A program made the translations under genes and the position numbers. A stretch of 11,780 bases of DNA from IMG/VR virus record IMGVR_UViG_2548877011_000017. One strand, written 5' to 3'. A model generated the notes under the pieces. It worked only from the letters and a program-made list of their open reading frames with translations, did no database searches and was not told the DNA's origin. Positions within the stretch are counted from its first letter, which is position 1, and each line of letters begins with the position of its first letter. This DNA is from a virus. Lineage: Duplodnaviria > Heunggongvirae > Uroviricota > Caudoviricetes. Of the stretch, positions 7,670 to 10,141 are shown one piece after another.

Positions 7670-10141
7670 ATGAGTAAAGTCTTTATTTGCGCCGCCATTC
7701 CGGACGAACAGGCAATAAAGGAAGAAGGTGCAGTCGCTGTAGCCACAGCTATTGAAGCTGGCGACGAACGCCGTGCTCGAGCAAAATTTCACTGGCAATT
7801 CCTGGAACATTATCCGGCTGCTCAGGACTGCGCTTATAAATTTATTGTCTGCGAGGATAAACCTGGCATACCCCGCCCTGCCCTCGATTCATGGGATGCT
7901 GAATATATGCAGGAAAACCGCTGGGATGAGGAGTCTGCTTCCTTTGTCCCGGTTGAGACTGAATCCGATCCGATGAACGTCACTTTTGACAAGCTGGCCC
8001 CTGAAGTACAGAACGCTGTCATGGTTAAGTTCGACACATGTGAAAACATCACCGTTGATATGGTTATTAGCGCACAGGAATTGTTGCAGGAAGACATGGC
8101 AACATTCGACGGACATATCGTTGAAGCGTTGATGAAAATGCCAGAAGTTAACGCCATGTATCCGGAGCTTAAGCTGCATGCCATCGGGTGGGTTAAGCAT
8201 AAATGTAAGCCTGGTGCCAAATGGCCCGAAATTCAGGCAGAGATGCGCATCTGGAAAAAACGTCGCGAAGGTGAACGCAAGGAAACCGGAAAATACACGT
8301 CTGTTGTTGATCTCGCCCGCGCCAGAACCAATCAACAGCACACTGAAAATTCAACAGGAAAAATCAGCCCGGTCATTGCTGCCATTCATCGCGAATACAA
8401 GCAGACATGGAAAACACTGGATGACGAACTGGCCTACGCTCTCTGGCCTGGTGATGTGGATGCCGGAAACATTGACGGCAGCATCCATCGCTGGGCAAAA
8501 AATGAAGTTATCGACAACGACCGCGAAGACTGGAAGCGTATCTCGGCATCAATGCGCAAACAGCCTGATGCCCTTCGCTACGACCGCCAGACTATTTTTG
8601 GCCTTGTCCGTGAACGTCCGATCGACATTCACAAAGATCCCGTAGCACTGAACAAATATATCTGCGAATACCTGACGACAAAGGGCGTGTTTGAGAATGA
8701 AGAAACAGACCTGGGCACTGTTGATGTTCTCCAGTCATCAGAAACACAAACTGATGCAGTGGAAACTGAGGTATCTGATATCCCAAAAAATGAAACCGCG
8801 CCGGAAGCTGAACCATCTGTAGAGCGTGAGGGGCCGTTCTACTTCCTCTTCACCGACAAGGATGGCGAAAAATACGGTCGCGCAAACAAACTTTCTGGTC
8901 TGGATAAGGCGCTGTCTGCTGGGGCTACTGAAATCACGAAAGAAGAATATTTCGCCCGCAAAAACGGTACATACTCAGGTTCACAACAAAATACTGGTGC
9001 ATCTGACACGACCGCACAACCAGGGCCGGTAAAAGTTACCGCTGACGAAGTAAACAAAATTATGCAGGCAGCCAATATCAGCCAGCCTGACGCCGATGAA
9101 CTGCTTGCAGTATCACGTGGTGAATTTGTTGAAGGGATTAGCGACCCGAATGATCCGAAATGGGTTAAGGGGATCCAGACCCGCGATTCTGTGAACCAGA
9201 ACCAGCAAGAAACGGAACAGAACGACCAGAAAGCGGAACAAAACAGCCCAAATACGCAACAAAACGAGCCAGAAACGAAACAACCTGAACCAGTAGTGCA
9301 ACAGGAACCGGAAAAGATCTGCACCGCCTGCGGTCAGAGCGGTGGCGGCAACTGCCCTGATTGTGGTGCGGTGATGGGTGACGCAACATACCAGGAAATA
9401 TTCGATGGAGAGAATCAGCCTGAAGTTCAGGAAAATGATCCGGAGGAAATGGAAGGCACTGCGCATCAGCACAAGGAGAACACTGGCGGCAATCAGCATC
9501 ATGCCAGCGATAGTGAAACTGGCGAGGCGTCAGATCCCTTAATTAAGGCGAACGGTCATCATAATCTCACATCCACCAGCAGAGCGGGGATTCATCTGAT
9601 GATCGACCTTGAAACCATGGGAAAAAATCCCGATGCCCCGATTATCTCAATAGGTGCAATATTTTTCGATCCGCAAACCGGAGATATGGGACCGGAATTT
9701 AGTAAGACTATCGATCTGGAAACTGCTGGCGGAGTCATTGATCGGGACACCATTAAATGGTGGCTTAAGCAATCACGCGAAGCGCAATCTGCCATTATGA
9801 CCGATGAAATCCCGTTAGATGATGCACTGTTACAATTGCGGGAATTTATCGACGAAAACTCCGGTGAATTTTTTGTTCATGTCTGGGGAAATGGAGCCAA
9901 CTTCGACAACACGATTTTGCGCCGTTCATACGAACGGCAGGGGATCCCCTGCCCGTGGCGTTACTACAACGATCGCGATGTACGCACAATCGTTGAGCTG
10001 GGGAAAGCCATAGACTTCGATGCCAGAACGGCTATTCCATTCGAAGGTGAGCGCCATAATGCACTTGATGACGCCCGTTACCAGGCAAAATACGTTTCAG
10101 CTATCTGGCAAAAACTGATCCCGAGTCAGGCTGATTCTTAA
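7670..10141 (+). CDS. Large phage protein (823 aa) with C-terminal DnaQ-like DEDDh 3'-5' exonuclease domain, internal Cys4 zinc ribbon and Q/E/N-rich linker
   Basis: ATG 7670 with GAGGT about 10 nt upstream. C-terminal motifs [10 protein letters not shown] (Exo I, D-x-E), [10 protein letters not shown] (Exo II) and [11 protein letters not shown] (Exo III, H-x4-D) at nt ~9590-10130; CTAC-x9-CPDC at nt ~9320-9363. It occupies the slot before xis-int where Qin has the ydfE fragment and Rac has recE. Confidence 0.85.
   Translation: [823 protein letters not shown]

What the first reader, a model, noticed from the sequence alone, without database searches (positions are those of the whole stretch)
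7670..10141. 823-aa protein with DEDDh exonuclease domain in the RecE/YdfE slot, without a RecT-like partner
The C-terminal roughly 180 aa carry clear DnaQ-like Exo I/II/III motifs, preceded by a Cys4 zinc ribbon and a Q/E/N-rich linker; the N-terminal roughly 450 aa have no motif I can name. Rac has recE-recT in this position, but here there is no annealase gene before xis-int, so this may be a different kind of early nuclease (recombination, anti-defence or host takeover).
Basis: partly seen in the sequence, partly recalled or inferred. Interest (0 to 1): 0.5.

Follow-up and report, generated by a model that had tools for sequence, protein, structure and literature searches.

The report
RecE-like prophage protein, swapped nuclease head
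This is the intact form of the E. coli K-12 pseudogene ydfE: a very common prophage protein that keeps the mysterious front part of the recombination nuclease RecE but carries a different, opposite-polarity (3'-to-5') exonuclease at its end and has no annealing-protein partner.

Summary
ORF 7670-10141 encodes 823 aa. Its C-terminal domain (aa 642-813) is a DEDDh exonuclease of the Rv2179c/T4 DexA type (Pfam E 1e-66), preceded by a Cys4 ribbon and a Q/E/N-rich linker. No annealase lies between repressor and xis-int, here or in 164 related loci.

The N-terminus is not an orphan. Residues 1-256 are 98% identical to K-12 YdfE (Qin prophage, cut by IS2). Residues 262-625 match the non-catalytic part of RecE, about 75% identical across the motif and zinc ribbon. 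Only RecE's PD-(D/E)XK nuclease is replaced.

The gene is intact in 82 of 84 copies. dN/dS is 0.04-0.2 in folded modules and 0.6-0.8 in linkers. A near-full-length copy sits in 65% of complete E. coli genomes and in viable phage mEp460.

Relatives put the same scaffold on a RecE nuclease, a DEDDh nuclease or a Rad52-like annealase. Standalone DEDDh homologues sit between a Rad52-family annealase gene (annotated erf), ssb and abc2 in P22-like phages.

Best reading: an early-operon enzyme that trims DNA 3' ends for phage recombination. The role is inferred, not shown. It is a new variant of a known kind, of moderate interest.

The parts
7657..7660 (+). Shine-Dalgarno-like GAGG, 9 nt upstream of the ATG
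   Evidence: Read directly from the sequence.
7670..10141 (+). Complete 823-aa ORF (stop codon included): the intact YdfE-type, RecE-scaffold DEDDh exonuclease
   Evidence: It is 99.2% identical to genes annotated 'exonuclease' / "3'-5' exoribonuclease domain-containing protein" in E. coli chromosomes. It matches PHROG 2082 end to end.
7670..7969 (+). Module D1 (aa 1-100): small alpha/beta domain, YdfE-type
7982..8335 (+). Module D2 (aa 105-222): helical domain
   Evidence: AF2 pLDDT 92-98. dN/dS for aa 1-225 is 0.115. Distantly shared with HK225 RecE.
8402..8689 (+). Module D3 (aa 245-340): helical domain, the module most widely shared with RecE (RecE ~278-360) and with all head classes
   Evidence: AF2 pLDDT 85-97. 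dN/dS 0.128.
8831..8965 (+). Module D4 (aa 388-432): small beta-beta-alpha-beta domain with the motif GPFYF...GRANK...EITKEEY. It is absent from K-12 RecE and present in some annealase-headed and RecE-nuclease-headed relatives
   Evidence: AF2 pLDDT 95-97. dN/dS 0.038, the lowest in the protein. Motif survey.
9113..9187 (+). Conserved linear motif [25 protein letters not shown] (aa 482-506), shared with RecE 462-486 and with members of the other head classes
9188..9313 (+). Q/E/N/P-rich, low-complexity linker (aa 507-548)
   Evidence: Composition. dN/dS is relaxed in the other inter-module linkers measured separately (0.63-0.78); this stretch was only measured within the aa 471-575 block (0.25).
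9320..9364 (+). Cys4 zinc ribbon C551/C554/C562/C565 ([15 protein letters not shown])
   Evidence: Invariant in 68 copies. Identical pattern in RecE at 517-531. Weak Pfam DZR hit.
9593..10108 (+). DEDDh 3'-5' exonuclease domain (aa 642-813), Rv2179c-like / T4 DexA-like; catalytic residues D646, E648, D746, H796, D801
   Evidence: Pfam PF16473 E 9.6e-67. PDB 8kel (227-aa 'Exodeoxyribonuclease'; identified as T4 DexA from chain length, the S87A/D90A variant entry 8ken and the paper PMC12153337, not from the entry name) E 5.7e-6. Alignment with T4 DexA. Catalytic residues invariant. dN/dS 0.21.

Best explanation
The gene encodes a beads-on-a-string phage protein of the RecE family. In it, the usual C-terminal 5'-to-3' PD-(D/E)XK nuclease has been replaced by a Mg2+-dependent DEDDh 3'-to-5' exonuclease of the Rv2179c / T4 DexA type.

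It lies in the repressed early-left (dicB-type) operon of a Qin-like lambdoid prophage, just upstream of xis-int. It is therefore most likely made only after induction or infection (inferred from position; no promoter-like site lies directly upstream).

The scaffold comprises modules D1-D4, the [17 protein letters not shown] motif and the zinc ribbon. It is presumed to bring the catalytic head to DNA ends or to a host partner, as in full-length RecE (inferred).

The head removes nucleotides from free 3' ends: 3' tails, flaps or duplex ends. This would process phage and recombination intermediates, as DexA does during double-strand-break repair (intron homing) in T4.

No annealase is encoded alongside. 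Strand pairing would therefore have to come from host RecA or other host functions, or from annealases of co-resident prophages (inferred).

Shown here: domain identities, mosaic structure, intact catalytic residues, purifying selection, the missing partner, and the interchangeable heads. Not shown: substrate, polarity in vitro, expression timing, and biological role.
For: Identity of the head:
- Pfam PF16473 at E 9.6e-67.
- Matches PDB 8kel (227-aa 'Exodeoxyribonuclease', identified as T4 DexA by inference), and aligns with T4 DexA with all five catalytic residues conserved.

RecE kinship:
- aa 262-625 are 38% identical to RecE 278-591, and the motif plus zinc ribbon are about 75% identical.
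- NCBIfam exoVIII gives a partial hit over 246-626.
- aa 1-256 are 98% identical to K-12 YdfE.

Functional gene:
- 82 of 84 complete copies are intact at 822-823 aa, with catalytic and Cys residues invariant.
- dN/dS is 0.04-0.21 in folded modules and 0.63-0.78 in linkers.
- It is present in viable phage mEp460.

Recombination context:
- The same scaffold carries a RecE PD-(D/E)XK head (13 representatives), a DEDDh head (9) or a Rad52-like annealase head (17).
- The annealase call rests on sub-threshold Pfam Rad52 hits in 10 of 17 members, and on an AF2 model (pLDDT 86) whose only significant PDB match is human Rad52, 5jrb, E 3.8e-7.
- The annealase-headed gene is followed by Sipho_Gp157.
- Standalone DEDDh homologues (54-57% identical) sit between a Rad52-family SSAP gene (annotated erf), ssb and the anti-RecBCD gene abc2 in P22-like phages Bas106 and g341c.

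Literature:
- DexA acts in intron homing and host-DNA scavenging (PMC12153337).

Operon position: dicB-ydfD-exo-xis-int in all annotated relatives. No sigma-70-like site lies directly upstream.
Against: - No activity, substrate or phenotype is known for this protein or for any scaffold-DEDDh relative.
- No paper on it was found.
- A 3'-to-5' exonuclease produces 5' overhangs, which are not the canonical substrate for RecA or annealase loading.
- No annealase partner exists in 164 loci. A self-contained two-component recombinase is therefore excluded, and recombination would need help in trans.
- The founding member of the family, Rv2179c, is an exoribonuclease.
- Many standalone family members lie in non-recombination contexts: P2-like, YuA-like and Vibrio phages.
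Confidence: 0.5

Rival explanations
1. Counter-defence or host-takeover nuclease. The early-expressed DEDDh head would destroy host or defence-derived nucleic acids that have free 3' ends, such as retron msDNA, reverse-transcriptase cDNA, linear oligonucleotide signals or host DNA fragments. The scaffold would act as a decoy or binder for a host factor.
For: - Early-left operons of lambdoid phages are rich in such functions; in P22-like phages abc2 (anti-RecBCD) lies next to the standalone homologues.
- DexA scavenges host DNA (PMC12153337).
- The missing annealase partner argues against a classical recombinase.
- From my own knowledge, not read here: RecE itself has been reported to interact with retron systems. 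The bioRxiv paper 10.1101/2020.06.22.160242 was listed.
Against: - The scaffold's other heads are a recombination exonuclease and a Rad52-like annealase, which points to recombination rather than degradation of signals.
- No sequence feature suggests specificity for cyclic nucleotides.
- No experimental link exists.
Confidence: 0.15
2. Prophage-encoded defence (HREX-like). The DEDDh domain would selectively degrade incoming modified (5hmC) DNA of T-even phages and so protect the lysogen, as claimed for the E. coli DexA homologue EcD.
For: - PMC12153337 reports that plasmid-borne EcD degrades T4 DNA, spares unmodified dsDNA and protects against T4.
- EcD, reconstructed from the paper's primers as a 189-aa standalone protein with A78, is 38% identical to target aa 644-820.
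- The gene is extremely common in E. coli prophages.
- PADLOC gives a weak hit to a CRISPR-associated DEDDh model, E 1.4e-5.
Against: - By that paper's own criteria the target does not qualify. The positions aligned with DexA W152 and D169 are Y766 and K779. The tetramer residue D90 is retained as D718. All three are invariant.
- The gene sits in a repressed early operon, with no promoter-like site of its own, so it should not be made in the lysogen.
- It is fused to a RecE scaffold, whereas EcD stands alone.
Confidence: 0.1
3. RNA exonuclease. Like Rv2179c, the head would trim RNA 3' ends, for example by processing or degrading early phage or host transcripts (including the dicF/dicB operon RNA) or small RNAs.
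For: - The best Pfam family is named for the M. tuberculosis exoribonuclease Rv2179c.
- NCBI annotates many copies as "3'-5' exoribonuclease domain-containing protein".
- The gene lies in the same operon as the DicF sRNA in related prophages.
Against: - The characterised phage and E. coli members closest in sequence (DexA, EcD) are DNases.
- The scaffold is shared with DNA recombination proteins.
- This very window lacks dicF, yet keeps the gene intact.
Confidence: 0.08
4. A decaying prophage remnant with no current function, which is how ydfE appears in K-12.
For: K-12 ydfE is a pseudogene cut by IS2. One of the 84 copies examined (the best megablast match, H1 = L001) is frameshifted, and another hit has an IS3 insertion.
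Against: - 82 of 84 complete copies are intact.
- Purifying selection is strong in the folded modules.
- The gene is present in viable phage mEp460.
- Catalytic residues are invariant.
Confidence: 0.02

Closest known systems
RecE (exonuclease VIII) of the Rac prophage, E. coli K-12
   Same: - Same slot in a lambdoid early-left operon, upstream of xis-int.
- Homologous non-catalytic region: target 262-625 against RecE 278-591, 38% identical overall.
- The motif SRGEFV(E/D)[18 protein letters not shown] and the CxxC...CxxC ribbon are nearly identical.
- Similar size (823 aa against 866 aa) and the same layout of folded beads joined by disordered linkers.
   Different: - The catalytic head is DEDDh, predicted 3'-5', instead of the PD-(D/E)XK 5'-3' toroid. 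There is no similarity to RecE 600-866.
- The first ~260 aa are YdfE-type rather than RecE-type.
- The extra module D4 is absent from RecE.
- There is no recT downstream.
- It scores 272 bits against the 1269-bit cutoff of the RecE equivalog model.
YdfE (b1577), Qin cryptic prophage pseudogene of E. coli K-12
   Same: 98% identical over aa 1-256. Same neighbours (dicB, ydfD upstream; int downstream) and the same chromosomal site next to rspB in the relative L002.
   Different: K-12 ydfE is truncated by IS2 after about 256 codons and so lacks D3, D4, the motif, the zinc ribbon and the nuclease. The window carries the full-length gene.
T4 DexA (exonuclease A; PDB 8kel) and the E. coli homologue EcD ('HREX', PMC12153337)
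   Same: Same DEDDh subfamily, with all five catalytic residues aligned. The target is 24% identical to DexA and 38% identical to the EcD-like 189-aa protein. DexA is a 3'-5' DNA exonuclease with a role in recombination (intron homing).
   Different: - DexA and EcD are standalone proteins of 189-227 aa; here the domain is the C-terminal head of an 823-aa scaffold.
- The residues proposed for 5hmC recognition (W152, D169) are Y and K here.
- The surface loops of DexA are absent.
Standalone Rv2179c-like exonucleases of P22-like phages (g341c gp29; Bas106_0031)
   Same: 54-57% identical to target aa 618/642-816. They are also encoded in the early-left operon of temperate enterobacterial phages.
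   Different: They are single-domain proteins of about 182 aa. They lie between a Rad52-family annealase gene (annotated erf) plus ssb on one side and abc2 on the other, so they have annealase neighbours. The target has a scaffold and no annealase.
Two-component phage recombinases (SynExo: lambda Exo/Bet, RecE/RecT)
   Same: Same position and same presumed time of expression. A nuclease that acts at DNA ends.
   Different: The opposite predicted polarity. No SSAP gene was found in 164 loci. The nuclease belongs to a different superfamily.

Membership tests
DEDDh (DnaQ-like) exonucleases, Rv2179c-like subfamily (PF16473) | Match to the family profile above the curated cutoff | tested here: met
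   224.5 bits against a cutoff of 27, E 9.6e-67, covering profile positions 2-177 of 177.
DEDDh (DnaQ-like) exonucleases, Rv2179c-like subfamily (PF16473) | Exo I (DxE), Exo II (D) and Exo III (Hx4D) catalytic residues | tested here: met
   D646/E648, D746 and H796/D801 align with DexA D7/E9/D119/H186/D191 and are invariant in 68 sequences.
DEDDh (DnaQ-like) exonucleases, Rv2179c-like subfamily (PF16473) | 3'-5' exonuclease activity on nucleic acid | not testable with these tools
   Needs a nuclease assay on labelled DNA and RNA substrates.
RecE / exodeoxyribonuclease VIII (NCBIfam NF007259 equivalog) | Full-length match above the curated cutoff | tested here: not met
   272.3 bits against a cutoff of 1269. 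Only target 246-626 matches, to profile positions 271-603 of 877.
RecE / exodeoxyribonuclease VIII (NCBIfam NF007259 equivalog) | C-terminal PD-(D/E)XK nuclease domain (RecE 564/606-866) | tested here: not met
   BLASTP finds no similarity to RecE 600-866. That position is occupied by the DEDDh domain.
RecE / exodeoxyribonuclease VIII (NCBIfam NF007259 equivalog) | Non-catalytic N-terminal/middle region, conserved motif and zinc ribbon | tested here: met
   E 5e-60 over target 262-625. The motif and ribbon are nearly identical.
RecE / exodeoxyribonuclease VIII (NCBIfam NF007259 equivalog) | Adjacent recT (annealase) gene | tested here: not met
   None in the window. None in 86 close loci. None in 78 divergent DEDDh-headed loci. 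The prevalent flanking ORFs are YdaT, P-like, PerC, DUF1627, DnaT-like and integrases.
HREX defence nucleases (EcD type; PMC12153337) | Conserved Trp and acidic residue at the DexA W152 and D169 positions (5hmC recognition) | tested here: not met
   The MAFFT alignment places Y766 and K779 there; the EcD-like protein has W and E. Caveat: these are loop regions, so the alignment is uncertain, and W763 lies three residues upstream.
HREX defence nucleases (EcD type; PMC12153337) | Loss of the tetramer-forming Asp (DexA D90) | tested here: not met
   The target keeps D718 at that column; the EcD-like protein has A78.
HREX defence nucleases (EcD type; PMC12153337) | Protection of the cell against modified-DNA phages | not testable with these tools
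   Needs plaque and growth assays.
Two-component SynExo recombinase | Exonuclease gene paired with an SSAP gene in one module | tested here: not met
   See the recT row above.

The most novel reading that the evidence does not exclude
The N-terminal ~600 aa of RecE have had no known function since RecE was first described. They may be a portable adaptor that lambdoid phages combine with at least four interchangeable DNA-transaction heads: a 5'-3' PD-(D/E)XK exonuclease, a 3'-5' DEDDh exonuclease, a Rad52-like annealase and an unknown fourth domain. On this reading the DEDDh-headed form, the commonest in E. coli, defines a third type of lambdoid recombination module. It would work without its own annealase, by trimming 3' ends and handing the intermediates to host RecA or to annealases supplied in trans.
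Probability: 0.3. Interest if true: 0.7.

Novelty: new variant of a known kind. Interest (0 to 1): 0.5.

Why it matters
- **Prevalence.** A near-full-length copy sits in about two thirds of complete E. coli genomes, often in several copies, and it is carried by viable phages. Yet it is only labelled 'exonuclease' and has never been studied.
- **A handle on an old question.** It is a RecE relative with an opposite-polarity head. The same scaffold also carries a Rad52-like annealase in other phages. This offers a comparative and experimental way (head swaps) to ask what the RecE N-terminal region does. That region matters in practice, because full-length RecE drives the linear-linear recombination used for direct cloning.
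- **Annotation.** Proteins with the annealase head are currently labelled 'exonuclease'.
- **Possible tools.** If the DEDDh form supports recombination without its own annealase, it would broaden the known repertoire of phage recombination systems and possibly of recombineering tools.

Tried and rejected
- **Was the 'uncharacterised E. coli exonuclease' EcD of PMC12153337 a fragment of this gene?** No. The published primers encode MIDTET... and a different C-terminus. The matching 189-aa standalone protein is only 38% identical.
- **Is the scaffold itself an annealase or nuclease?** No fold or Pfam support.
- **Rfam on the window:** no hits.
- **Literature.** Searches for YdfE, for Rv2179c with phage, for RecE with DEDDh, and for RecE with Rad52 fusions found nothing on this protein. 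One search was wasted because 'full-length RecE' matched 'receptor'. PMC11706625 (diDNases) and PMC9879122 (Gifsy-1/RtcR) proved irrelevant.
- **Annealase screen.** tblastn and phmmer with reference SSAPs were insensitive: K-12 RecT did not detect the HK225 RecT-like protein. I therefore also clustered all flanking ORFs of at least 130 aa from 164 loci and ran Pfam on the prevalent unclear ones. P22-type Erf (PF04404), Sak4 and Gp2.5 references were not searched directly. Singleton ORFs were not all scanned.
- **Pfam and a PDB profile search on the third head class** were sub-threshold or empty. The Rad52 assignment rests on the structure prediction plus Foldseek.
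Full report
**What is in the window**

The 11.8-kb window is the immunity and early-left region of a Qin-like lambdoid prophage of E. coli. The best whole-window matches are E. coli chromosomes at 97.7-99.3% identity, and one relative is integrated next to rspB/ynfA, exactly where Qin sits in K-12. The genes, in order, are:

- a 932-aa SEC-C/AAA/Cap4-like protein (1-2799, minus strand);
- a frameshifted DUF977 gene;
- a replication gene;
- ydaT- and ydaS-like genes;
- the repressor (5380-5841);
- ydfA-ydfB-ydfC;
- a dicB remnant;
- ydfD (7332-7577);
- the target ORF (7670-10141);
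- an excisionase (10214-10465);
- an integrase (10485-11780).

**Check of the observation**

The ORF is real. It has 823 codons, an ATG start and a GAGG 9 nt upstream.

- *Nuclease domain.* Residues 642-813 match Pfam PF16473 (Rv2179c-like 3'-5' exonuclease) at 224.5 bits against a cutoff of 27. The closest solved structure by sequence is a 227-aa 'Exodeoxyribonuclease' (8kel), which I take to be T4 DexA. In a three-way alignment, D646, E648, D746, H796 and D801 fall on the DexA catalytic residues.
- *No annealase.* None lies between the repressor and xis-int.

**What the N-terminus is**

- Residues 1-256 are 98% identical to the K-12 pseudogene ydfE, which is cut by IS2. The window therefore carries the intact form of YdfE.
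- Residues 262-625 align with RecE 278-591 (E 5e-60). The stretch [25 protein letters not shown] and the zinc ribbon are almost identical to those of RecE. The NCBIfam RecE model hits only this part, far below its cutoff.
- The similarity stops where the RecE nuclease domain begins.
- Homologues in the large protein collection carry two recent Pfam families, PF27430 and PF27432, that are not in the local library. I could not read their descriptions.

**Structure of the scaffold**

An AF2 model of residues 1-460, built on 27 diverse homologues, has a mean pLDDT of 83. It shows four confident modules separated by disordered linkers:

| Module | Residues | Fold |
|---|---|---|
| D1 | 1-100 | alpha/beta |
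| D2 | 105-222 | helical |
| D3 | 245-340 | helical |
| D4 | 388-432 | small beta-beta-alpha-beta |

**Is the gene functional and common?**

- *Prevalence.* Megablast finds the gene in 4788 of 5426 complete E. coli genomes. In 3537 of them at least 80% of the gene is covered. The median is two places per genome and the maximum is ten.
- *In a viable phage.* Phage mEp460 carries a 95.6% identical copy in the same dicB-ydfD-exo-xis-int arrangement.
- *Intactness.* Of 84 copies examined, 82 are intact at 822-823 aa, one is frameshifted and one is cut by a contig end. All catalytic and cysteine residues are invariant across 68 distinct sequences.
- *Selection.* dN/dS is 0.04-0.21 in the folded modules and 0.63-0.78 in the linkers. 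The gene is under purifying selection, module by module.
- *A narrow family.* An exhaustive HMMER search with residues 1-460 found only 189 clusters (at 50% identity) among 1.84 billion proteins.

**The scaffold carries interchangeable heads**

I compared the 59 long representatives with pieces of the target and of RecE. This shows a combinatorial architecture.

- The first module is either YdfE-type or RecE-type.
- The D3 region is shared by nearly all of them.
- D4, the linear motif and the zinc ribbon are present in some and absent in others.
- The C-terminal head falls into four classes:
  - DEDDh: 9 representatives, on both kinds of N-terminus;
  - RecE-like PD-(D/E)XK: 13 representatives;
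  - a third class: 17 representatives;
  - a fourth, unknown class.

The third class has the invariant motif KKSLTD..KKALS.LGF. Ten of its 17 members hit Pfam Rad52_Rad22 below threshold on exactly that stretch. An AF2 model (pLDDT 86) has human Rad52 as its only significant PDB match (5jrb, E 3.8e-7, 179 columns). It is therefore a Rad52-like single-strand annealing domain.

In phage contigs, that annealase-headed gene sits in the same slot. It is followed by a Sipho_Gp157 gene and then xis-int, with no exonuclease. PHROGs label these proteins 'exonuclease'. That label probably comes from annotation transfer through the shared scaffold.

**Where the head occurs on its own**

The closest standalone relatives of the DEDDh head are 54-57% identical.

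- In P22-like phages Bas106 and g341c, they lie between a Rad52-family annealase gene (annotated erf) plus ssb on one side and the anti-RecBCD gene abc2 on the other. This is inside the classical recombination module.
- In Salmonella phage F1055, the standalone gene sits just before xis-int, as here.
- More distant members, in P2-like, YuA-like and Vibrio phages, lie in early regions without obvious recombination neighbours.

**The missing partner**

- None of RecT, Bet, lambda Exo, Gam, the Rad52-like heads or the erf-annotated Rad52-family proteins is detectable in 86 close loci.
- None is detectable in 78 loci with divergent DEDDh-headed proteins carrying a RecE-type N-terminus.
- The reference-based screens proved insensitive. 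I therefore clustered all 1133 flanking ORFs of at least 130 aa from 164 loci. The prevalent clusters are replication proteins, YdaT, PerC, DUF1627, repressors and integrases.
- By contrast, an HK225-type RecE with a PD-(D/E)XK head is followed by a RecT-like gene.

The absence of an annealase is a consistent property of the DEDDh-headed form.

**Interpretation**

Shown:
- a RecE-family scaffold;
- an intact DEDDh head;
- selection acting on each module;
- no partner annealase;
- interchangeable heads that include a recombination exonuclease and an annealase;
- close standalone head homologues inside annealase-ssb-abc2 modules.

Inferred:
- The protein is made from the early-left operon after induction. 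No promoter-like site lies directly upstream.
- The scaffold delivers the head to DNA ends or to a host partner. This parallels full-length RecE, whose N-terminal domain is of unknown function but enhances linear-linear recombination (PMC11611040).
- The head trims 3' ends of recombination or replication intermediates. T4 DexA does this in intron homing (PMC12153337).
- Strand pairing is left to host RecA or to annealases of co-resident prophages.

I put about 0.9 on the molecular description and about 0.5 on the recombination role.

**Rivals**

- *Defence (HREX).* This rests on EcD, an E. coli DexA homologue reported to degrade T4 DNA and to protect cells. I reconstructed EcD from the paper's primers as a standalone 189-aa protein. 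It is 38% identical to the target's head. By the paper's own criteria the target does not fit: it has Y766 and K779 at the 5hmC-recognition positions, and it retains the tetramer Asp. It also lies in a repressed operon.
- *Anti-defence or host takeover.* This fits the operon and the missing annealase, but has no specific support.
- *RNase.* This follows the family name, but the nearest characterised members are DNases.
- *Pseudogene decay.* This is contradicted.

**Novelty and score**

The gene is present in databases and loosely annotated. I found no paper that studies it or that describes head-swapping on the RecE scaffold. It is best filed as a new variant of a known kind: a RecE-family early phage protein with a DEDDh head and no annealase.

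Interest is moderate. The enzyme class is ordinary. The prevalence, the opposite polarity, and the handle it gives on the unexplained RecE N-terminus are worth a specialist's attention.

Noticed in passing
window 5973-7217: The ydfA-ydfB-ydfC cassette is tandemly duplicated. The two copies (5973-6593 and 6594-7217) are about 621-624 bp long and 95-96% identical. The nearest relative (L003) has a single copy.
   Followed up: partly
window 7217-7389: Relative to L003, 629 bp are missing right after the duplication. The missing stretch covers the DicF sRNA region and the first 6 codons of dicB. Only a dicB remnant remains (7219-7389, 89% to K-12 DicB aa 7-63), and Rfam finds no DicF. The duplicated and deleted lengths are almost equal, so a segment replacement or an assembly artefact is possible.
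   Followed up: partly
window 1-2799 (minus strand): A 932-aa protein with an N-terminal Cap4-like/LmuA-like nuclease motif (Pfam PF14130 E 5.9e-6; PADLOC LmuA E 5e-7), an AAA_22 ATPase domain and a C-terminal SEC-C zinc motif. It lies between hokD and the replication genes. It is a candidate prophage-borne anti-phage defence gene.
   Followed up: partly
window 3043-3451 (minus strand): The DUF977 gene is split into two overlapping ORFs (83 and 91 aa), so it is frameshifted. The closest relative is annotated the same way.
   Followed up: no
L034 5989-8337 and 8334-8837: A 782-aa protein with the YdfE-type scaffold and a Rad52-like annealase head (AF2 plus Foldseek: human Rad52, E 3.8e-7). It is followed by a Sipho_Gp157 gene and then xis-int. 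All 8 such loci show the Gp157 neighbour. PHROGs 2489 and 7838 call these proteins 'exonuclease', which is probably a mis-annotation.
   Followed up: yes
proteins P0127, P0232, P0263, P0268 and others (not in the window): A fourth class of scaffold proteins (600-700 aa) has a C-terminal region (phrog_26058) with no Pfam match and no similarity to the other three heads.
   Followed up: no
L125 3379-5919; L128 2772-4852: In P22-like phages Bas106 and g341c, a standalone Rv2179c-like exonuclease sits between the Rad52-family annealase (annotated erf) plus SSB and Abc2, roughly where abc1 lies in P22 (from my own knowledge of the P22 map). In g341c it is annotated 'endonuclease'.
   Followed up: partly
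window 10150-10195: Just after the stop codon there is an inverted repeat (GCCGGTTG ... CAACCGGC) with no T-run. It may be a stem-loop between the exonuclease and xis genes.
   Followed up: no
L010, L015, L025, L028, L031 (viral contigs): A 189-aa standalone DexA homologue starts MIDTETLGNGPDAA and has Ala at position 78. It matches the primers published for EcD (PMC12153337), apart from one extra A in the reverse primer. This suggests that EcD is itself phage- or prophage-borne.
   Followed up: partly
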